From the IMG/VR virus record IMGVR_UViG_3300017774_006254, positions 64,001 through 128,000 of that record: a DNA stretch of 64,000 nucleotides; one strand, 5' to 3'. The position numbers were made by a program, and so were the translations under genes. Origin of the DNA: a virus. Every line of letters starts with the position of its first letter. Positions within the stretch are counted from its first letter, which is position 1. The notes beneath the pieces are model-generated. The model was not told the DNA's origin. It was given only the letters and a program-made list of their open reading frames with translations, and did not search any database. Positions 10,079 through 55,642 of this stretch are shown piece by piece.

Positions 10079-10706
10079 AATGCCTCCCATCTACACGTTC
10101 ATCGGAACCAAGTTTCGCTTTCTCGACGCGGACCCGAAGGACGTCTCGCTCATCGACATCGCCCAGTCGCTTGCCATGACGTGCCGCTACAACGGCCACA
10201 GCCTCCGCCACACGTCAACGGCAGCTCATTCCGTCCGCGTTGCAGAGCGAGCGCTCCAGGAAACCGGGGTACCCGGTATCGCCTGGCTCGCGCTCATGCA
10301 CGACGCTCCCGAGGCGTACGTCGGAGACATTCCCACGCCACTCAAGCACGCGATGCGCATCGTGTGTGGGGAAAAGAAGAGCCCATTCGACACCATCGAA
10401 GACGCGGTCACCGCTGTCGTCGCGCAGGCGCTTGGACTCGACGAAAAGATCACCGGAAGATACTCGCTCAGGGAAGCCTGGGCCATTGTCAACGGTCTCG
10501 ACTACGAAGACTTCATCGCCGAAGCCAGTGTTGAGTGTCGTCAGCCAAAACGCCTGGTCCCTGAAAAAGCGATCTACCCCACCGGCCACACCGCCAAGCA
10601 AGCGCGAGCGCTGTGGCTACGTACGGCTGCCAAGTACGCCCCCACGACCGAGTTGCTTGTTCGCGTCCGAAGTGCCCAAGCGTACTTCCGAGGAGCGCAT
10701 CAATGA
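10062..10706 (+). CDS. HD-domain 5'-deoxynucleotidase-like hydrolase (YfbR/YfdR-like)
   Basis: DIAQSLAMTCRYNGH, STAAHS, LMHDAPEAYVGDIPTPLK. Confidence 0.85.
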   Translation: MTKIPEMPPIYTFIGTKFRFLDADPKDVSLIDIAQSLAMTCRYNGHSLRHTSTAAHSVRVAERALQETGVPGIAWLALMHDAPEAYVGDIPTPLKHAMRIVCGEKKSPFDTIEDAVTAVVAQALGLDEKITGRYSLREAWAIVNGLDYEDFIAEASVECRQPKRLVPEKAIYPTGHTAKQARALWLRTAAKYAPTTELLVRVRSAQAYFRGAHQ

Positions 10707-12487
10707 CCTTCCGTGTCTACAGGTACGGCTTGCAACCGCCCATCGAGAACGCGGAACTTGTTCGAAGCCAATTTGTCCTGGCTCACAAGTACCAGAACAA
10801 GCTCATCGAGATCGAAATTCAGCAGCGCGCAGAGGTGCGTGCTCTGTCTGCCAGGCACGGCGTCATCCCTGAGCTTGAAGCCAATGCCAAGGCTGCCGTC
10901 GACAGCGTCGACAAGCTCTTGGCAGAAATCAGGGTCCTGAAGTCGGCATCGAGAACGCGGGTCGTGCCGCAGGAACTCAAAGACCAGCTCGCCGCCGCGA
11001 AGGTAATCAAGAAGGAGACGCGAAATGCTCTCCAGGCGGCGCGCTACGAGACGCGCTCCGACACCGCGATCGCAGCCATCAGCAAGGAGATTCAGGAGAA
11101 GTACCTCGCAGCGCGCAAAGCAGCTCGTGCCGCTAACGGTCTCTACTGGGGCTCCTATCTGCTGGTCGAAGACGCAGACGACGCGCGGCGCAAGATGCCG
11201 TTCTACAAGGGCATCGAGCCGAATGACCCCCGCTTCGTGCGCTGGTCGGGTGAAGGTGCTGTCGGAGTGCAGATGCAGAAGGGGCTCCCGGTGGAAAGTA
11301 TCTCCACATCAAGGCACATTCGCATCGACCCCCGTCAGGCTCCTCCAGGAGTTGACCCTGCAAGCAAACGCTCCGCGAAGCGCTCGTACTGCACGCTCCG
11401 AATGCGCGTCGAAACGAATGATGACGCCACCAAGACACCGGTGTGGGCAGCTTGGCCTATGGTGTTCCACCGGCCCCTGCCAGAAGGCGGCGTGATCAAG
11501 CGAGCAGCCGTGCACATGAGGAAGATCGGCCCGCGAGAAGAGTGGTACGTGCTGTTCTCGGTCGATTTCAGCGGGGCTCCCGCGACTCCAGCTACAACAG
11601 AGCGAGTAGCCGTTGACATCGGATGGCGAGTGACTGAGGACGAAGGCATCTGCGTCGCCACTTGCGTCTCAGACAGCGGAGAGATCACGCGACTCGTCTT
11701 GGACAAGAAACTGCTGTCTCAGGCGAAAAAAGCGGAAGAGCTTCAGTCCATCCGAAAGAGGAACTTCAACGAAGCCATCGTAGCGCTCGTGAGCCAAGTT
11801 CACCTGGCAACCAATCCACCGGACGGGAGCGCGCCCACGATGCTGCTGCCAGAGTGGTTCCCTACGAACCTGATGCAGTGGAAGTCGGAGCAACGCTTTG
11901 CGGGCCTGGTGCACCAATGGGCGACCAATCGTTTTGAAGGCGACGAAGAGATCTTCACCGCCGCAGAAGCATGGCGCATCCACGACCGACACCTGTGGGA
12001 CTGGGAATGCAACCAGAGGTCAAAGGCTCTCCGTCACCGACGAGAGGTGTATCGAATCTTCGCGGCTCGACTTTCAAACAAGTACGCGCAGATCGTCCTC
12101 GAAGACTTCGACCTCCGGAAGGTGGCTCAAGTCCCAAGCGTTGAGAATCAAGTCGGCGACAACGAGCAGGCTCGGGCGAACCGACACTCGGTCAGCGTGA
12201 GCGAGCTGCGGCTCTGCCTGGTCAACAAGTTTGTAGACCGTGTATCCATCGTGCCCGCCGAGTTCACAACCAAGAGGTGTGCTCACTGTGGCCATCTGAA
12301 CACCTGGGACCAGGCGAAGTACGTCAGCCACACGTGCGCCAGCTGCGGTACCACTTGGAACCAAGACGAGAATGCGGCGCGCAACATGCTCGCTTACGAG
12401 AGCCCGCCTGTTGAAGCCAAAGCCCCATCCAAGGGTCGATGGATCAAAGCTAAGGAGGCGAAGAGGGAGCGAGAGGCGGCCGAGTAA
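10703..12487 (+). CDS. cas12m: Cas12m-like (type V-M/V-U1) RNA-guided effector, TnpB/Cas12 RuvC family, 594 aa
   Basis: N-terminal VYRYGL, long coiled-coil REC insertion, GLYWGSY, GAVGVQMQ, RuvC-I VAVDIGWR (D305), QWKSEQRF, RuvC-II VLEDF (E467), CxxC..CxxC zinc finger, RuvC-III QDENAARN (D555); AGGAG RBS and ATGA overlap. Confidence 0.8.
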   Translation: MTFRVYRYGLQPPIENAELVRSQFVLAHKYQNKLIEIEIQQRAEVRALSARHGVIPELEANAKAAVDSVDKLLAEIRVLKSASRTRVVPQELKDQLAAAKVIKKETRNALQAARYETRSDTAIAAISKEIQEKYLAARKAARAANGLYWGSYLLVEDADDARRKMPFYKGIEPNDPRFVRWSGEGAVGVQMQKGLPVESISTSRHIRIDPRQAPPGVDPASKRSAKRSYCTLRMRVETNDDATKTPVWAAWPMVFHRPLPEGGVIKRAAVHMRKIGPREEWYVLFSVDFSGAPATPATTERVAVDIGWRVTEDEGICVATCVSDSGEITRLVLDKKLLSQAKKAEELQSIRKRNFNEAIVALVSQVHLATNPPDGSAPTMLLPEWFPTNLMQWKSEQRFAGLVHQWATNRFEGDEEIFTAAEAWRIHDRHLWDWECNQRSKALRHRREVYRIFAARLSNKYAQIVLEDFDLRKVAQVPSVENQVGDNEQARANRHSVSVSELRLCLVNKFVDRVSIVPAEFTTKRCAHCGHLNTWDQAKYVSHTCASCGTTWNQDENAARNMLAYESPPVEAKAPSKGRWIKAKEAKREREAAE

Positions 12488-12663
12488 TGGGCGCACGTGC
12501 ACGAGCATGGGGGACGTCTCCTGCCTGGTGGTAGTGCGGCAAGTGCAATCGCGAGCGCGATCACAAGAACTTCGCCAAAGCAGGACAGCCAGTTCCCACC
12601 GGCCGTATCAAAGGAAAAGTCACGAGTCCGCACGTGCAGTACAGTCGTGACCATCCGACGTGA
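12487..12663 (+). pseudogene. interrupted paralogue of the Zn-ribbon gene at 61908-62171
   Basis: reads SPAWW*CGKCNR...AGQPVPTGRIKGK versus SPPCWKCGKCNR...HGKPTPTGRIEKK; in-frame TAG at 12532, early TGA at 12661. Confidence 0.6.
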
Positions 12664-12775
12664 TCGCAGCACTTACACACTTCTGCGCGCACCTTTCATT
12701 CGTTCGGATGTTCCCCGACGAAGCAGTCAAGTCAGGTCTGTTTTCCGAAATGCAACTAGATCGCTGGAGAAAACG

Positions 12776-13021
12776 ATGAACACAACAAGACCATACGTGG
12801 TGAAGTCCGGAGACACACTGTCTCGAATTGCCACGGACCATGGCTTGTCTTGGCGTGCTCTCTACGACTCACAAGAGAACGCCGACTTTCGAGCGAAACG
12901 TCCGGACCCTCAGAAAATCTTCGTTGGCGACGTCATCAACATTCCAGAGAAGAATGTAGCTCTCCGCAGGCTCGGGACGGTTGCCGAGCTGGACCCGTTG
13001 TGGTCGCCGATCAAGGTCTAA
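12776..13021 (+). CDS. LysM-domain protein (81 aa)
   Basis: YVVKSGDTLSRIA...NADFRAKRPDPQKIFVGDVINIP; GGAG RBS. Confidence 0.85.
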   Translation: MNTTRPYVVKSGDTLSRIATDHGLSWRALYDSQENADFRAKRPDPQKIFVGDVINIPEKNVALRRLGTVAELDPLWSPIKV

Positions 13022-13035
13022 CCGCAGTACACGAA

Positions 13036-13310
13036 CTCGACGCGTCGAGGCATTGGTTGGTGGACAAGTGGCGCTCGCGTCCGAGGCGAGACAGATCCAA
13101 ACCGCTTGGAGTATCCAAGACCCGAGGACAAGCTTTGAAGGCCGCTCGGCGCCCAGCCGAGACCGTAACGGAGTTTCGGCGACAAAGACGAGACGAGATC
13201 ACCGTCCGCAAAAGCAGCTCGACGCTCCAAGTCGAGACCTGGATGCTCGCTGTGCAAGCGCAATGGCATCTCGGCGCCCAGCCGAGACGAAAGGATCGCA
13301 CACGAATGCG
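13036..13310 (+). CRISPR. degenerate structure-conserved CRISPR-like mini-array (6-7 hairpin+AC units)
   Basis: hairpins ending (G/A)AGAC at 13092, 13121, 13163, 13194, 13238, 13288; CTCGGCGCCCAGCCGAGAC identical at 13145-13163 and 13270-13288; intergenic, about 550 bp downstream of the cas12m-like gene. Confidence 0.65.
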
Positions 13311-13339
13311 CCTTGACTGGCCAACTGTTACACTTGGCC

Positions 13340-14152
13340 ATGTCTTCACGTCAGCGCAAAACCAGCCGAAATCCCGAGTCCAAAAATCGTCGCGTAACGA
13401 TTAGACCAGGGCTAATCTCTGGGCCTGGATTCAAAGCCACCGCCTACAAGGGATCCGATCCCACCTTCAAAGGTCGTATCGCAGTTCTGCGTGGCTCCGG
13501 GATGACTGAGTTCCCCAACGTGCAGCAGCTCACTCGCATTCTGCGCGAGGAGGGCATTTCACCTTCCGCCGCTGAGCAGGCCTTTGGCTCGAAGAAGATG
13601 AAGAAGAACGGCGGCGCGGGGAAGACCGTTCGCCATGGCTACCTCAAGATCGGCGGCATGGAAGCAGCCGAGTACAAGGGTCCCGAGAAGAAGCTTACTG
13701 GCAAGATTCACATCTCGGCCCCCGGCATCAGCGCTTACAAGACCGTGAGCGAATTCCAGCAGATCGCCCAAAAAATCGGCATCGACATGGAGGACCTTGT
13801 CGCGGCGTTCGGGCACATGTTCGAACTCGAAAAGCCAGAGAAGATCGACGCCAAACTCACGTACGGACCGAAGCGCATGAAGCTTGGCCACGTTGGGCCT
13901 CGCGGCGTGAGCTTGGGGACGAAGCAGGGAAGCCTAGTCTTGCTCGATAGCCAGAGCGGTCAGATTGTCTGGGGCGTCATGGAGGAGTCCAAGGCAATTC
14001 GCAACATGGCGACGAACCGTGAAGTCTCCGTCGCAAGCGTGTTTACCAAAGCGAAGTCACTGAGGATTCCAGCACAAGCAGTCTACGACGCATTCGGGCA
14101 CATGCTGAGTGCCGAGGAGCGTCGAAAGCTTGTTACTTCATTCCATCGCTGA
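13340..14152 (+). CDS. basic protein with three internal domain repeats
   Basis: repeats end ISPSAAEQAFG, IDMEDLVAAFG, IPAQAVYDAFG; TGnTACACT 5 nt before ATG. Confidence 0.65.
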   Translation: MSSRQRKTSRNPESKNRRVTIRPGLISGPGFKATAYKGSDPTFKGRIAVLRGSGMTEFPNVQQLTRILREEGISPSAAEQAFGSKKMKKNGGAGKTVRHGYLKIGGMEAAEYKGPEKKLTGKIHISAPGISAYKTVSEFQQIAQKIGIDMEDLVAAFGHMFELEKPEKIDAKLTYGPKRMKLGHVGPRGVSLGTKQGSLVLLDSQSGQIVWGVMEESKAIRNMATNREVSVASVFTKAKSLRIPAQAVYDAFGHMLSAEERRKLVTSFHR

Positions 14153-14168
14153 CGTCTGTCGAAAGTAG

Positions 14169-14197
14169 TTGACGGCGAGATCCGCGAGAACTACTTT
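14169..14197 (+). promoter_or_regulatory. sigma70-like promoter, likely leaderless transcript
   Basis: TTGACG, 17 bp, TACTTT, then ATG 14204 6 nt later with no SD. Confidence 0.65.
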
Positions 14198-14203
14198 CGA
14201 CAG

Positions 14204-16537: not shown

Positions 16538-17383
16538 ATGAGCCCAGTCTTCTTGATCGACATCTCCTCGTACCTGCATCGCGCAATGCACGTGATTCAC
16601 GGAAAGCTTGCCTCTGAAGCCGATCCGTCAGACATCTCGTTCACCGTTCACGCAGCGAACATGCTCGCCAACACCATGTTTCGACTTCACATCGAAAGAA
16701 TGGCCGTGGTGTTCGACTCGACCGAGCCATCAGCTCGGTGCCAAGTCTACCCGCAGTACAAAGCCGACAGGAAGCCTCACACTCCTGTGTTCGCGGCCCA
16801 GATGCCTCGGTTCATGGCAGCCCTGGCTGACGTCGGAGTAAGCGTCTTCGAAGAACCTACCTTCGAAGCCGACGATATCATCGCGACTCTGGTAGGAGAT
16901 GAAAGAGTTCCGTACTCGATCGTGTCACACGACAAAGACCTGCTTGCTCTTGTCGACGATGCGTCAGAGGTGGCCGTCTACAACCCAACATCTGACAAGT
17001 GGCACCGCATGGATGACATCTTCTCCAAACTGGGAGTGTTTCCATGGCAGTTGCATGACTACATGGGACTAGTCGGAGACACGTCAGATGGAATCCCAGG
17101 CGTTCCTGGGATTGGAGCCAAGACCGCTTCAGCTCTCGTGGTGAAGTACGAAACGCTAGAACGTATCTACAGCGCGGAATGTCGCGAGCTTGTAGAAGAT
17201 GATCTGTCCAAGAAGCAGTTCTCTTCGCTTATTGAGAGCGAGGAAGTGGCTTTCTTGTCCAGGAGTCTAGCCAAGCCAATCATCTGCCCCGAGTTGATTA
17301 TGGTTGGGCATGGGCCCCTCTCTGCGCCGAGTCCCGACAGGATACGAACGGCCGTACAAGACTACGAGAGGAGGAATCGCTGA
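16538..17383 (+). CDS. 5'-3' exonuclease / flap endonuclease (Pol I N-terminal-like)
   Basis: LIDISSYLHRA, YKADR, FEADDIIATL, DKDLL, GDTSDGIPGVPGIGAKTA (H3TH). Confidence 0.92.
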   Translation: MSPVFLIDISSYLHRAMHVIHGKLASEADPSDISFTVHAANMLANTMFRLHIERMAVVFDSTEPSARCQVYPQYKADRKPHTPVFAAQMPRFMAALADVGVSVFEEPTFEADDIIATLVGDERVPYSIVSHDKDLLALVDDASEVAVYNPTSDKWHRMDDIFSKLGVFPWQLHDYMGLVGDTSDGIPGVPGIGAKTASALVVKYETLERIYSAECRELVEDDLSKKQFSSLIESEEVAFLSRSLAKPIICPELIMVGHGPLSAPSPDRIRTAVQDYERRNR

Positions 17384-20300
17384 TGCCTTTGGTGCGGACG
17401 ACCCACAACTTCGAACTTCCGATGACGCCTCGGAGCCCAGACGTTCGTACCTGGACGCCTCAGATGGGCACGCAAGACCTCGTGTACTCGCTTGCTGTTG
17501 GTGCTTGTGCTCCGACAGCCGAGACACAACTTCAGCGGCGCGCTGTCGAGGCCGTGAGCGTTCCATTGGCCAAGTCAGGAGGCGGCTCTGTCGTCACGAT
17601 GAGACCATACCAGAACGAGGCCATCGAAGCCGTTTCAGCGGCCTGGAAGAGTGGTTCGAAGTCGCCATTGATTGTCTTGCCGACGGCTTGCCACCGTGCC
17701 GGACAAGGCGTCCTCATGATGGATGGAACCGTTAGAAACGTAGAAGACGTGCAAGTGGGAGATGTCCTGCTCGGGCCAGACTCCAGGCCTCGAAATGTCC
17801 TCAAGACGCACCGCGGGTTCGGTCAGATGTTTGAAGTCATCCCTGTAAAAGGAAAGCCCTTTGTCGTGAACGGCGAACACGTGCTCACGCTGTACCGAAC
17901 CCCCCAGAAGCCCAACGCTAAGTACCCAAGTCAAAGATCGGCCATCGTTGACGTGACGGTGAATGATGTACTGACCAAGTCAAAGACATGGCGTCACATT
18001 CACAAACTGATCCGAGCGAGCGATGTAGAGTTTTCCGTCAGAGAGGCCCCGGTCATTCCTCCGTACTTCCTCGGCCTTTACATCGCAGACGGCTCCATGG
18101 CACAGCCCAATCAAGTTGCAGTGTCCAAGCCGGACCCGGAGGTAAGAGCTGCCTGCATGGAGCTTGCGGAAAGCTGGGGACTCAACATGCGAACGGACGT
18201 CGGTGGGAGTGGTTGCCCTTCGCATCACCTCTCAGGACTCACGTCTCCAGGAAAGACTCGCGGAGACAACCATATCCTGACGGAACTTCGCAAGCTTGGC
18301 CTCATGAACATTCCCTCCGAGGAACGCTTCATACCAGACAGTTACAAGTTCGGGTCGATTGCGGTGAGAAGAGAGCTTCTGTCCGGCTTCTTAGACGGAG
18401 ACGGACATCTCCATCGAACTGACTACGACGTCATTACGAAATCGAAGCGACTGTCCGATGACATCGTCTTCGTAGCTCGGAGCCTGGGGCTTGCTTCGTA
18501 TTCCGCTCCTTGCGTGAAGGGGTGCCAGAACGGGTTCATCGGGAATTACTTTCGCGTGACCGTATCCGGGGAAACCTCAAAACTGAAACTGAGGATACCG
18601 CGCAAGCAAGCGCCTCTCAGAGCCCAGAAGAAGAATCCTCTCGTTGCTGGATTCAGCGTGAGAAGACTTGAAGAGGAGCCGTTCTTCGGCTTCACACTTG
18701 ACTCAGATCACCGATACCTGCTTGACGACTTCACGATCACGCACAATTCGGGAAAGACGATCATCTCCGCCGAAATCATGGCTCGCACGTACGCGGGCTC
18801 TGGAGAGAAGAGCCTGTTTATTGCGCATCGTGAGGAACTGCTCACTCAAACGGTCGACAAGGTAAGGCTAGTGAGTCCCAACACTCGCGTTGGGTTGGTG
18901 CAGGGGAAGATTGCAGAGTTCGGCCGCGATGTGACCGTCGCCTCGATTCAAACGGTCGGCCACAGTAGCAAGAAGAAGCTGCGTGAACTCATCGACGGCG
19001 GACCGTACAGAACCATGATCATCGATGAGTGTCATCACGCTACGGGCAAACAGTATCGCGATGTCATCTCCGCGTTGATGGAAGCGAACCCCTCGATGCT
19101 GATCATGGGAATGACAGCAACACCCGGCCGGTCCGATGGCCTAGCTCTCGATGCCGTGTTCGACTCGGTGGCATTCGAGAAGGACATCTTCTCGATGATC
19201 CGCGAGGGATGGCTCGTTCCTCCCGTTGGCTTCGCGCAGAAGATCGATGTCGACCTCGACAAGGTTGCAACAGGTAACGGTGACTACGTATTGAGTCAGC
19301 TGTCGAAATTGATGAACACGCCCAAGGTCAACCGCGCAGTTGTCGAAGCGTGGCAGACGCATGGGCTCGACCGGAAATTCATCGCCTTTGCTTGCGACGT
19401 CGCTCACGCAAAAGCCCTAGCGCAAGAGTTCAACGACAGTGGATACCCCGCAGCGGCCGTCGACGGGAAGATGAAGAAGACGGAACGCAAGAGCATACTC
19501 ACTGCATTCCGCGAAGGCGCATTGAAAATCCTCGTGAACTGCAACATCTTGATCGAGGGGTACGACGATCCAAGCGCCGAAGGAGTCCTCTTCGCGCGCC
19601 CGACACAGAGCCAGGGCCTGCACATCCAGTCGCTCGGAAGAGGACTTCGCCTGTTCCCTGGGAAGACAGAGTGCCTGGTGATCGACTGCGTTGGAAACAG
19701 CGCGAAGCACCGCCCAGTGCAGCTCGCTTCCCTCGTCGGCTTTGATCCGCAAAGGAAGTACAAGGGCTTCGCCGGGTTCGGAAACGAGGAAGAGGAAGAA
19801 ACTGAGAAGCCAGCCGAAGTAGGCGTCGACGATGCTCGACTTGGTCAAGCGTCAGAACTTGGATTCGGATTCGCTCCGCTGAAAAGCACGTACCAGTGGA
19901 GAGAAACTTCTTTGGGGTGGATCATCCAGATACCGAAGATCGGCTACTACCTAGTCGCATGGAGCGACAAGACCAAGGTGATGGCCACGATTCGCTTCTA
20001 TGACCAAAGAAAAGGGCGCAAAACAGACAAGCCTCGCGAGGTGACCCGAATGCCGATCGAGTTCGACATGGCCTATGGGCTTGTTGAAGGAGAACTTGAC
20101 CGAATGTTCCGCGCCAAAGACTTGCGACGCGAGGAGAAGAAGGACGAGACAGGCGCAGACCTCGTCTCGTTCGTCCCGCTCGATGATGGTCTGGATGAAG
20201 ACCTGTCCGTCAGAGAAGAGCAGATGCTCAAGGACGCCGAGTGGCGAAACAAGCCCAAAACAGAGAAGCAGCGAGAGTGCCTCGAATCGCTGGGCGTGAA

Positions 20301-20505
20301 GATGAAGACGATGCCCGAGCTTGCTGGAGAAGCCAGCGACCTAATCACCATTATGCGCGTTGAGAAAGAGCTGAAGATGCGCGTGCCCGCGACGCTGAAG
20401 CAGCTGAACTTCCTTCGCTTCCACGGTATCCCGTTCTCCGAAGACATCACCAAGGGCCAGGCCGCCAAACACATCTGGCTTCATCGAAAGGCGACTGAGG
20501 TATGA
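17383..20505 (+). CDS. SF2 DEAD/DEAH-box helicase precursor containing an intein
   Basis: Q motif MRPYQ, split Walker A LPTA|SGKT, IIDECHH, GMTATP, EGYDDP, QSLGRGLR. Confidence 0.92.
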   Translation: MPLVRTTHNFELPMTPRSPDVRTWTPQMGTQDLVYSLAVGACAPTAETQLQRRAVEAVSVPLAKSGGGSVVTMRPYQNEAIEAVSAAWKSGSKSPLIVLPTACHRAGQGVLMMDGTVRNVEDVQVGDVLLGPDSRPRNVLKTHRGFGQMFEVIPVKGKPFVVNGEHVLTLYRTPQKPNAKYPSQRSAIVDVTVNDVLTKSKTWRHIHKLIRASDVEFSVREAPVIPPYFLGLYIADGSMAQPNQVAVSKPDPEVRAACMELAESWGLNMRTDVGGSGCPSHHLSGLTSPGKTRGDNHILTELRKLGLMNIPSEERFIPDSYKFGSIAVRRELLSGFLDGDGHLHRTDYDVITKSKRLSDDIVFVARSLGLASYSAPCVKGCQNGFIGNYFRVTVSGETSKLKLRIPRKQAPLRAQKKNPLVAGFSVRRLEEEPFFGFTLDSDHRYLLDDFTITHNSGKTIISAEIMARTYAGSGEKSLFIAHREELLTQTVDKVRLVSPNTRVGLVQGKIAEFGRDVTVASIQTVGHSSKKKLRELIDGGPYRTMIIDECHHATGKQYRDVISALMEANPSMLIMGMTATPGRSDGLALDAVFDSVAFEKDIFSMIREGWLVPPVGFAQKIDVDLDKVATGNGDYVLSQLSKLMNTPKVNRAVVEAWQTHGLDRKFIAFACDVAHAKALAQEFNDSGYPAAAVDGKMKKTERKSILTAFREGALKILVNCNILIEGYDDPSAEGVLFARPTQSQGLHIQSLGRGLRLFPGKTECLVIDCVGNSAKHRPVQLASLVGFDPQRKYKGFAGFGNEEEEETEKPAEVGVDDARLGQASELGFGFAPLKSTYQWRETSLGWIIQIPKIGYYLVAWSDKTKVMATIRFYDQRKGRKTDKPREVTRMPIEFDMAYGLVEGELDRMFRAKDLRREEKKDETGADLVSFVPLDDGLDEDLSVREEQMLKDAEWRNKPKTEKQRECLESLGVKMKTMPELAGEASDLITIMRVEKELKMRVPATLKQLNFLRFHGIPFSEDITKGQAAKHIWLHRKATEV
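17689..18747 (+). mobile_element. intein with LAGLIDADG homing endonuclease (353 aa)
   Basis: starts at Cys (CHRAGQ), block B NGEHVL, FLGLYIADG and LLSGFLDGDG, ends THN followed by Ser, inserted in Walker A. Confidence 0.93.
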
Positions 20506-43042: not shown

Positions 43043-43116
43043 GCTCCCGTAGCTCAGTTGGATAGAGCAGTCGCTTCCTAAGCGAAAGGTCCCAGGTTCA
43101 ACTCCTGGTGGGAGCG
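43043..43116 (+). tRNA. tRNA-Arg (anticodon CCT)
   Basis: acceptor GCTCCCG/TGGGAGC, D arm AGCTCAGTTGGATAGAGC, loop TTCCTAA, T arm CCAGG-TTCAACT-CCTGG; no encoded CCA. Confidence 0.93.
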
Positions 43117-55245: not shown

Positions 55246-55611
55246 GGGCGTGAAAGGTGTCGACGGAGTGACTGGAGACCGTGTTGCGTGCAGGGGTTGA
55301 TCGGCTGGCCCCTATATCAAGCCGATCATCGTAGATGCGAACGAAAGCAACTACGCTCGCGCCGCGCAAGCAGCCTGAGCCGTTTGGTGAAGTAGGCGGC
55401 GGACTTCATCGGGCGTCATTTAGCCGAGGCAAGCTTGTTTTGTATCCTCAGGATTCAAGCCCAAGGCTGTTCATCTGAAGATTGGTGGAGGAGTGACCGT
55501 CACTCCCGACCGGGCCGCACCAGCTGAGAGCGGTACTCTCGAACAGGTGATACGCACGTAGACGCACGGAATTTGGCATTTCGGACCCGGGTTCGACTCC
55601 CGGCACGTCCA
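55246..55611 (+). ncRNA. ssrA: tmRNA; tag (A)ANESNYARAAQAA
   Basis: acceptor GGGCGUG/CACGUCC with G3-U wobble and A discriminator; 5' GAAAGGUGUCGAC; 3' GACCCGGGUUCGACUCCCGG T arm; tag ORF 55337-55378 after UAGAU. Confidence 0.93.
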
Positions 55612-55612
55612 T

Positions 55613-55642
55613 CGCCACCTGGAAACGGGTGGCGTTTTCTTT
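55613..55642 (+). terminator. intrinsic terminator after tmRNA
   Basis: CGCCACC-TGGAAACG-GGTGGCG followed by TTTTCTTT. Confidence 0.8.

What the first reader, a model, noticed from the sequence alone, without database searches (positions are those of the whole stretch)
13036..13310. Array whose repeats conserve structure (5-6 bp stem + AC) but not sequence
Seen: CTCGAC-GC-GTCGAG-GC (13036-13051), CTCGC-GTCCGAG-GCGAG-AC (13074-13092), CTTGGA-GTA-TCCAAG-AC (13105-13121), CTCGGC-GCCCA-GCCGAG-AC (13145-13163), TTTCG..CGAG-AC (13174-13194, weak), CTCGAC-GCTCCAA-GTCGAG-AC (13218-13238), CTCGGC-GCCCA-GCCGAG-AC (13270-13288). Stems show compensatory changes (CTCGGC/GCCGAG, CTCGAC/GTCGAG, CTTGGA/TCCAAG) while loops vary. 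Most stems follow a loose AA..G leader (GCAATGGCAT, GCAAAAGCAG, TGAAGGCCG, CAAGTGGCG). As I recall, V-M repeats likewise end in a ~6-bp stem followed by AC. Identity-based CRISPR finders would probably miss this. Inference: repeat divergence protects a fixed guide set from recombinational loss.
Basis: partly seen in the sequence, partly recalled or inferred. Interest (0 to 1): 0.88.

Follow-up and report, generated by a model that had tools for sequence, protein, structure and literature searches.

The report
Small drifted Cas12m guide array
The hairpins are real: they form a small, partly decayed guide-RNA (CRISPR) array for the DNA-binding enzyme Cas12m that this 161-kb bacterial virus encodes just upstream, with repeats that kept the RNA fold but not the sequence, so it is an easily missed form of a known system.

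Summary
Observation confirmed. All seven hairpins sit at the stated coordinates. The 318-nt intergenic stretch holds 5 hairpin+AC motifs, against 0.21 in shuffles.

A clear Cas12m homologue (PDB Cas12m, E 4e-81) ends 550 bp upstream on the same strand. A covariance model built only from a second, about 36-unit hairpin array elsewhere in the same genome finds three strong matches in the 64-kb window, all inside the finding: 13137-13163, 13210-13238 and 13262-13288. The same model picks out the canonical CRISPR repeats beside cas12m in other viral contigs.

The units have the solved Cas12m guide-RNA layout: a 3-bp helix, a 2-nt linker, a 6-bp stem, then AC. The other four hairpins score at noise level and look decayed or uncertain.

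Two related viruses keep the array, with whole-unit gains and losses. No Cas1 or Cas2 is present, no targets were found, and transcription could not be tested.

Drift without repeat renewal explains it more simply.

This scan has already reported the same phenomenon, for the larger array of this genome and for several other phages. Verdict: a new variant of a known kind.

The parts
10703..12487 (+). cas12m gene (594 aa from the ATG; the ORF lister starts it at GTG 10613)
   Evidence: phmmer against PDB: 23vw_A 'Cas12m' E 3.9e-81 over residues 28-596; Cas12m2 8hhl E 4.5e-32. Pfam Cas12f1-like_TNB. RuvC D305/E467/D555 and the zinc-finger cysteines are conserved in a 44-sequence alignment. It is the only such gene in the genome.
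13036..13051 (+). H1: 14-nt palindrome CTCGAC-GC-GTCGAG followed by GC; an uncertain or degenerate unit
   Evidence: 9.2 bits with model R1, noise level. Missing in relative L005 and altered in L004. A 2-nt loop is sterically implausible as drawn.
13066..13092 (+). U2: 5-bp stem CTCGC/GCGAG + AC with upstream GGC; a plausible but divergent handle
   Evidence: 7.9 bits. The stem is kept in all three viruses while the loop changes in L004.
13097..13121 (+). U3: CTTGGA-GTA-TCCAAG-AC; a degenerate unit
   Evidence: Perfect 6-bp stem + AC but not listed by R1. The whole 29-nt unit is absent in L004.
13137..13163 (+). U4: strong Cas12m handle, GGC-CG-(CTCGGC)-GCC-CA-(GCCGAG)-AC
   Evidence: 33.8 bits, E 4.5e-7, with a model built only from the distant array. 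1 of 27 columns varies among three viruses.
13167..13194 (+). U5: imperfect hairpin ending CGAGAC; a decayed unit
   Evidence: 7.2 bits. 6 of 28 columns vary, the same rate as the spacers. It forms a better hairpin in L005.
13210..13238 (+). U6: strong handle, AGC-AG-(CTCGAC)-GCT-CCAA-(GTCGAG)-AC
   Evidence: 36.5 bits, E 8e-8. Only the distal loop varies among relatives.
13262..13288 (+). U7: strong handle, GGC-AT-(CTCGGC)-GCC-CA-(GCCGAG)-AC, preceded by GCAAT as in canonical repeats
   Evidence: 34.6 bits. Its 5' part GCAATGGCAT equals that of the canonical repeat of viral locus L036.
13164..13180 (+). candidate 17-nt guide after U4 (it runs into the decayed U5)
   Evidence: Inferred from the position after AC. 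Identical in the window and L004. No target found.
13239..13255 (+). candidate 17-nt guide after U6
   Evidence: Inferred. The first 12 nt are kept in relatives with one change, and the distal part is variable with indels. No target found.
13289..13339 (+). trailer after the last handle, up to the ATG of the next gene; candidate last guide and/or 5' UTR
   Evidence: 1 of 51 columns varies among three viruses. Contains an inverted repeat at 13318-13340. The metagenome hits to its first 20 nt are at chance level.

Best explanation
The stretch 13036-13310 is a small, partly decayed type V-M CRISPR-like array that serves the Cas12m encoded 550 bp upstream in the same virus. Three units (U4, U6, U7), and possibly U2, are intact Cas12m handles. 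Each has a 3-nt strand, a 2-nt linker and a 6-bp stem whose first three loop bases pair back to the 3-nt strand, followed by AC and then the guide. The likely mechanism is inferred from characterised Cas12m enzymes. The region would be read through from the cas12m/LysM transcript. Cas12m would bind each handle and cut the precursor within the repeat and about 17-18 nt into the guide. The resulting RNPs would bind PAM-flanked DNA and block transcription without cutting. The virus has no Cas1 or Cas2, so repeats are never renewed. They drift independently under selection for the fold, spacers shrink towards the 17 nt actually used, and units are duplicated, deleted or decay (H1, U3, U5). The array is the minor partner of a roughly 36-unit array of the same handles 67 kb away. 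Shown here: the effector homology, the handle architecture, the covariation, the specificity to two loci and the conservation in relatives. Inferred: transcription, processing, DNA binding and what the targets are.
For: - **Effector.** The neighbouring gene is a Cas12m homologue.
- **Independent model.** Model R1, built only from the distant array, gives three hits of 34-36 bits in 128 kb of both strands, all inside the finding; the next best hit is 13 bits. In the rest of the genome it hits only the distant array.
- **Match to known arrays.** R1 gives 96 hits in 71 cas12m loci, all on the cas12m strand. Nearly all fall in canonical arrays downstream of the gene, plus the three orthologous units in L004 and L005.
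- **Canonical repeat layout.** Of 33 distinct canonical viral V-M repeats, 32 have the stem directly before AC and 29 have the full 3-bp second helix. The stem sequence CTCGGC/GCCGAG and the AAGGCC lead-in of locus L064 match U4.
- **Unselected helix.** The second helix is 94.7% paired across 30 units, with CG 15 and UA 13 at one pair.
- **Solved structures.** They show the same layout. Cas12m2 has a 6-bp stem followed by A(-2)C(-1) (PMC10442227). PmCas12m pairs (-28..-26) with (-17..-15) and (-23..-20) with (-6..-3), carries a 17-nt guide, and cuts at guide position 17-18 (bioRxiv 10.64898/2026.03.26.714355).
- **Spacing.** Three gaps in this array leave exactly 18 nt between AC and the next 3-nt strand (read).
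- **Conservation.** Strong cores vary at 4 of 83 columns among three viruses, against roughly 20-48% in spacers and in U5.
- **Compensatory changes between orthologous hairpins.** CTCAGT/ACTGAG becomes CTCGGT/ACCGAG, and CTCGGC/GCCGAG becomes CTCGAC/GTCGAG.
Against:
- No protospacer was found. The virus's own genome gave nothing beyond chance. Five 20-mers gave no hit in IMG/VR. One 20-mer in JGI metagenomes gave hits at chance level. 401 genomes of the phylum of the nearest cellular Cas12m gave only noise.
- Two strong handles (U2, U4) are followed by only 10-12 nt before the next hairpin, so their guides would run into a decayed unit.
- Four of the seven units are individually at noise level.
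- Stem pairing in the training units was selected by my own search pattern, so only the second helix and the cross-locus hits are independent evidence.
Confidence: 0.72

Rival explanations
1. Non-functional relic. The stretch is the eroding remnant of a once canonical array that no longer yields working guides.
For: Four of seven units score at noise level. U5 changes as fast as the spacers. Some gaps are too short for a guide (10-12 nt). Units come and go among relatives. The small zinc-ribbon gene between cas12m and LysM is broken in this virus, which shows local decay.
Against: The three strong cores are the most conserved segments of the region, at 4 of 83 variable columns. They keep both helices. 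cas12m is intact with all conserved residues. The same three units persist in viruses whose Cas12m is 86-89% identical.
Confidence: 0.12
2. Handles used on the virus's own messenger RNA. Cas12m binds or cuts the hairpins to process or stabilise the LysM and downstream transcripts, for example to define the 5' end of the mRNA of the gene starting at 13340, without targeting DNA.
For: U7 lies 51 nt before the ATG, and that 51-nt trailer is nearly invariant in three viruses. In related locus L077 the hairpin clusters flank genes on both sides. Another report of this scan (e1-5361522) proposed such a use in a different phage.
Against: Hits are confined to two dense clusters and are not spread over gene starts. 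The unit spacing fits handle plus 17-18-nt guide. Canonical arrays of relatives carry ordinary spacers.
Confidence: 0.08
3. RNA decoys (RNA anti-CRISPR-like). Repeat mimics soak up a host's or a competitor's Cas12m.
For: Some hairpins have almost no room for a guide. Solitary repeat mimics in phages are a known strategy (own knowledge: Camara-Wilpert et al. 2023).
Against: The virus encodes its own intact Cas12m next to the array. The units are arranged like an array in the orientation of cas12m. The host is unknown, so mimicry cannot be tested.
Confidence: 0.05
4. Unrelated hairpins such as terminators, REP-like elements or protein operators, or a chance cluster.
For: The sequence is G+C-rich and palindromes are common. 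H1 is a perfect palindrome that could bind a dimeric protein.
Against: None of 2000 shuffles reaches the observed count. There are no T tracts on the + strand. The variable loop lengths do not fit a dimeric operator. The model hits match CRISPR repeats of other cas12m loci.
Confidence: 0.03

Closest known systems
Type V-M CRISPR-Cas12m systems (MmCas12m2, GoCas12m, MsCas12m, PmCas12m; PMC10442227, PMC11013384, bioRxiv 10.64898/2026.03.26.714355)
   Same: Homologous effector. No tracrRNA needed. The repeat ends in a 6-bp stem plus AC, with a second short helix from upstream bases to the loop. The guide follows the repeat. The array lies downstream of cas12m on the same strand. About 17 nt of guide are used.
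   Different: Within one array the repeats are only about 70-92% alike, where canonical repeats are near-identical. The handle is cut down to 24-29 nt, against 33-36 nt, with a 2-4-nt distal loop, against about 6 nt. Unit spacing is 29-73 nt and irregular, against 72-75 nt. Two genes lie between cas12m and the array. Decayed units are interspersed. Standard repeat finders do not detect it.
Canonical arrays beside cas12m in 69 IMG/VR viral contigs (e.g. L064, L036, L037, L007) and the MV-1 myxophage locus (bioRxiv 10.64898/2026.09.14.751636)
   Same: Virus-encoded Cas12m without cas1, cas2 or cas4. The handle architecture is the same, and in L064 and L037 nearly the same stem sequence. Targets are mostly unknown.
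   Different: Those arrays have identical 28-37-nt repeats and 33-38-nt spacers. The MV-1 array was found by a standard tool, with one consensus repeat and eight spacers.
Irregular, drifted arrays in closer or independent viral Cas12m lineages (L077, L078, L019), and earlier reports of this scan on other phages
   Same: Hairpin + AC units with variable loops, short and irregular spacing, and arrays split by genes (L077).
   Different: The four units of the L077 cluster that lies after the two intervening genes are identical 17-nt hairpins with a 3-nt loop. L019 keeps a constant stem and is canonical near cas12m, becoming compact further away.
Solitary repeat units / RNA anti-CRISPRs of phages (own knowledge: Camara-Wilpert et al. 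2023)
   Same: Phage-borne CRISPR-repeat-like hairpins, some without a usable spacer.
   Different: Here the cognate effector is encoded by the same virus, and the units form arrays with guide-sized gaps.
VIPR systems (bioRxiv 10.64898/2026.04.26.720920)
   Same: A phage-encoded, non-adaptive RNA-guided repression system. A GGY-NN motif also appears here once per unit.
   Different: VIPR uses a RAMP protein and tandem 5-nt GGY/NN repeats. Here there is no 5-nt tandem repeat, the protein is Cas12m, and GGY is one strand of a helix.

Membership tests
Type V-M CRISPR-Cas12m locus | Cas12m effector encoded next to the array | tested here: met
   PDB Cas12m 23vw_A E 3.9e-81 and Cas12m2 E 4.5e-32, full length. 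The gene ends 550 bp upstream on the same strand.
Type V-M CRISPR-Cas12m locus | Repeat ends in a roughly 6-bp stem directly followed by AC, with the guide 3' of it | tested here: met
   32 of 33 canonical viral V-M repeats have it. U3, U4, U6 and U7 have perfect 6-bp stems + AC. The Cas12m2 structure is described this way in PMC10442227.
Type V-M CRISPR-Cas12m locus | Second short helix between bases upstream of the stem and the first loop bases (the 'stem I' or pseudoknot partner) | tested here: met
   U4 GGC/GCC, U6 AGC/GCT, U7 GGC/GCC. 94.7% paired with covariation in 30 units of the sister array. 29 of 33 canonical repeats have it. PmCas12m pairs (-28..-26) with (-17..-15).
Type V-M CRISPR-Cas12m locus | Units recognised by a model of bona fide arrays, and the reverse | tested here: met
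   R1, built from the sister array, hits U4, U6 and U7 at 34-36 bits. It also hits canonical repeats beside cas12m in L007, L030, L035, L050, L064-66 and L070.
CRISPR array in the strict sense | Near-identical direct repeats at regular spacing | tested here: not met
   TRF finds nothing. The 12-mer chain search finds nothing in the orthologous arrays. Best direct-repeat family: 3 copies at 71-92% identity, spaced 71 and 125 nt.
CRISPR array in the strict sense | Spacers derived from foreign DNA, with matching protospacers and a PAM | tested here: inconclusive
   No match beyond chance in the virus's own genome, IMG/VR, JGI metagenomes (one guide) or 401 genomes of one phylum.
CRISPR array in the strict sense | Adaptation genes cas1 and cas2 | tested here: not met
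   No Cas1 or Cas2 match in the complete 161.5-kb genome. These genes are commonly absent from viral loci, so this does not exclude effector function.
Type V-M CRISPR-Cas12m locus | Transcription and Cas12m-dependent processing into roughly 50-nt crRNAs | not testable with these tools
RNA anti-CRISPR (solitary repeat units) | Mimics the repeat of a CRISPR system of the host, with no cognate effector in the phage | tested here: not met
   A cognate effector is present in the virus. The host is unknown, so mimicry is untestable.

The most novel reading that the evidence does not exclude
The virus carries a vertically inherited guide library that works without Cas1 or Cas2: this small array plus the 36-unit one. 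The units are already trimmed to the size of a mature crRNA, a 24-29-nt handle plus a 17-18-nt guide. The library would serve as a fixed transcription-silencing programme against host genes or rival mobile elements. The sequence diversification of the repeats would be positively selected because it stabilises the array against recombination, a natural counterpart of engineered non-repetitive guide arrays.
Probability: 0.2. Interest if true: 0.8.

Novelty: new variant of a known kind. Interest (0 to 1): 0.55.

Why it matters
- **Detection.** Virus-borne Cas12m systems can hide guide arrays that repeat finders miss, so counts of 'array-less' or 'mini-array' viral effectors are probably too low.
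- **Engineering.** The natural units define a minimal Cas12m handle: a 3-bp helix, a 2-nt linker, a 6-bp stem with a loop as short as 5 nt, then AC. They also supply a set of sequence-diverse but equivalent handles. Both are directly useful for compact, recombination-proof multiplex Cas12m guide arrays.
- **Biology.** The arrays point to non-adaptive, inherited RNA-guided silencing by a large bacterial virus. Its targets are unknown and are the main open question.

Tried and rejected
- **Rfam.** Only a tmRNA and one tRNA in the window; nothing at the finding.
- **Global folding.** Folding the 318 nt on either strand is no better than shuffles (z about -0.7). The signal is local hairpins, not one large structure.
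- **Promoter and terminator scan.** Nothing on the + strand.
- **blastn against the phage collection.** No match for 10600-14200.
- **Self-targeting.** 17-mers with up to 3 mismatches and exact seeds of 12-14 nt are at chance level. Guides of relatives against this genome are also at chance.
- **Targets elsewhere.**
  - Five 20-mers in IMG/VR gave no hits.
  - One 20-mer in JGI metagenomes gave 10 hits in 5 independent families, about the number expected by chance, and none in an array. The best was a 22-nt match with a CTG flank inside a GDSL lipase gene.
  - 401 genomes of the phylum of the nearest cellular Cas12m (Polyangiaceae MAGs, 36-37% identity) gave only scattered noise. A 57-nt, 80% match in one of them is just the shared palindrome.
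- **Shared 11-mers with other loci.** Uninformative. A 15-mer match to the cas12m gene of L077 is within chance.
- **Rest of the relatives' contigs.** Could not be searched as genomes.
- **VIPR-type GGY/NN tandem repeats.** Considered and rejected.
- **Protein-coding reading of the region.** Rejected, because unit indels of 29 and 40 nt break every frame.

Full report
**What is there**

The window is bases 64001-128000 of a complete 161,502-bp IMG/VR virus genome with direct terminal repeats. The finding lies in a 318-nt non-coding gap, 13022-13339. A small LysM gene (12776-13021) lies upstream, and a gene of unknown function starts at 13340.

- CGAGAC occurs five times on the + strand within 200 nt, against 60 in the whole window on both strands.
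- The gap holds 5 hairpin+AC motifs. In 2000 dinucleotide shuffles the mean is 0.21 +/- 0.46 and the maximum is 3.
- Only two places in the genome reach such a density.
- Unit-sized indels of 29 and 40 nt between relatives rule out a coding reading.

**Surroundings**

The ORF ending at 12487 is a full-length Cas12m homologue. It matches PDB 23vw_A 'Cas12m' at E 3.9e-81 and Cas12m2 at E 4.5e-32. The D-E-D RuvC residues and the zinc finger are conserved.

The genome has no Cas1, no Cas2 and no second TnpB/Cas12-type gene.

A whole-genome scan for the hairpin motif showed a second, much larger cluster at genome 143.7-146.05 kb on the minus strand. It lies outside the window and has about 36 units.

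**Independent test of the units**

I aligned 30 units of the distant array (A2) and built a covariance model from them alone (R1).
- With filters off, R1 gives three hits in the 64-kb window above 13 bits: 13137-13163 (33.8 bits), 13210-13238 (36.5) and 13262-13288 (34.6). All lie in the finding.
- In the remaining 98 kb of the genome it hits only the distant array.
- The other hairpins of the finding score 7-9 bits, like random background (13036, 13066-13092, 13167-13194), or are not listed (13097-13121).

So the array has three solid units, one plausible unit (U2, whose 5-bp stem is kept in all relatives) and three degenerate ones.

**Are they Cas12m repeats?**

An alignment of Cas12m relatives retrieved 69 viral contigs from IMG/VR. 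Most carry a canonical array just downstream of cas12m, with 36-nt repeats and a period of 72-75 nt.

R1 gave 96 hits in 71 loci, all on the cas12m strand. Nearly all fall in those arrays, plus the three orthologous units in the two close relatives.

I parsed 33 distinct canonical repeats. 32 have the stem directly before AC. 29 have a full 3-bp second helix between a trinucleotide upstream (usually after a 2-nt linker) and the first three loop bases.

The units here have the same layout:
- U4: GGC-CG-(CTCGGC)-GCC-CA-(GCCGAG)-AC
- U6: AGC-AG-(CTCGAC)-GCT-CCAA-(GTCGAG)-AC
- U7: GGC-AT-(CTCGGC)-GCC-CA-(GCCGAG)-AC

My search pattern did not select for the second helix. In the sister array it is 94.7% paired, with CG 15 and UA 13 at one position. 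Stem pairing in that set was selected by my pattern and is not counted as evidence.

The literature describes the same fold.
- Cas12m2 has a flipped A(-24), a G(-23):A(-2) pair, a 6-bp stem and then AC (PMC10442227).
- PmCas12m pairs (-28..-26) with (-17..-15) and (-23..-20) with (-6..-3). It has a guide of about 17 nt and cuts the precursor after guide position 17-18 (bioRxiv 10.64898/2026.03.26.714355).

For example, GCAATGGCAT before U7 equals the start of the L036 repeat.

**Spacing**

In the sister array the commonest gap between AC and the next stem is 22-23 nt. That equals 17-18 nt plus the 3-nt strand and the 2-nt linker.

In this array three gaps (after H1, U3 and U5) leave exactly 18 nt before the next GGC/AGC strand. 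The strong units also follow one another at 71, 73 and 52 nt (U2 to U4, U4 to U6, U6 to U7), close to the canonical period.

Two strong units (U2, U4) are followed after only 10-12 nt by a weak hairpin. So either the weak hairpins are decayed units inside what are now long spacers, or those two guides are compromised. I cannot decide between these.

**Relatives**

Two Logan contigs encode Cas12m proteins 89% and 86% identical to this one, in the same gene order (L004 and L005). Both keep the array.
- The strong cores vary at 4 of 83 columns. U5 and the spacers vary at about 20-48%.
- Whole units differ. L005 lacks H1. L004 lacks U3 and has one extra unit. The spacer of that extra unit is 17 of 23 identical to an existing spacer, so it is a diverged duplication.
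- In the large array, orthologous hairpins show coupled changes, such as CTCAGT/ACTGAG to CTCGGT/ACCGAG and CTCGGC/GCCGAG to CTCGAC/GTCGAG.
- In the same comparison, many units and the distal spacers differ between the two viruses.

More distant relatives also have compact or drifted arrays.
- L077 (53% identity) has two clusters of 17-nt hairpins split by genes.
- L078 (49%) has a 1.4-kb irregular array.
- L019 is canonical near cas12m and compact further away.

**Interpretation**

The best reading is a small, partly decayed Cas12m guide array whose repeats drift because nothing renews them, while selection keeps the fold. The observed unit gains and losses show that rearrangement continues.

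**Targets and expression**

No targets were found in the virus's own genome, in viral contigs, in metagenome contigs or in 401 genomes of one candidate host phylum. Expression could not be examined. What the guides do therefore remains inferred from characterised Cas12m enzymes, which bind DNA and do not cut it even with a D-E-D triad (PMC11013384).

**Novelty**

Type V-M systems are well described. A 2026 preprint reports a phage Cas12m with an ordinary array, and IMG/VR holds dozens more.

What is unusual is the divergence of repeats within one array with a conserved fold, together with the miniaturised handle. A limited literature search did not find this described.

Within this scan the same phenomenon has already been reported for the large array of this genome and for several other phages. 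This finding is therefore the minor array of an already noted system: a new variant of a known kind.

Noticed in passing
genome 143,650-146,100, minus strand (outside the window; locus L006 5680-8050): Second, about 36-unit array of the same Cas12m handles, 67 kb from cas12m, with small ORF-like stretches between blocks of hairpins. In the relative (L124) it is about 1.6 kb, and its distal spacers are largely different.
   Followed up: partly
window 12487-12663 (+): A short zinc-ribbon ORF overlaps the cas12m stop codon (TAATG). It is intact in L005 (90 aa) but interrupted here by an in-frame TAG and truncated before the second CxxC, so it is a decaying gene.
   Followed up: partly
window 13289-13339 (+): The 51 nt between the last handle and the next ATG are almost invariant in three viruses (1 change). 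They include an inverted repeat (13318-13328 / 13330-13340) that overlaps the start codon. This could be a regulatory 5' UTR or the last guide.
   Followed up: no
window 17383-20505 (+): A 1040-aa helicase (ResIII/Helicase_C) is interrupted by an intein with Hint and LAGLIDADG homing-endonuclease domains.
   Followed up: no
window 55246-55614 and 43043-43116 (+): The virus encodes a full-length tmRNA (Rfam 112 bits, tag ANESNYARAAQAA) and a tRNA-Arg(CCT).
   Followed up: no
L077 7790-7949 and 8863-9044: A related virus (Cas12m 53% identical) has two mini-clusters of minimal 17-nt hairpin+AC units with 3-nt loops. One lies directly after cas12m. The other lies after two inserted genes, one of which looks like a methyltransferase from its sequence motifs (not checked against Pfam).
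   Followed up: partly
L036 2076-2106, 2507-2546, 4942-4972: Model R1 also hits three A+T-rich sites (G+C 0.32-0.35) upstream of cas12m in one viral contig, away from its canonical array. They may be solitary handles.
   Followed up: no
L019 4417-6735 (IMGVR_UViG_3300018432_000013): In one array the period is canonical (71-78 nt) next to cas12m and becomes short and irregular (43-62 nt, with gaps) further away, and the loops vary. This may be a snapshot of the compaction process.
   Followed up: partly
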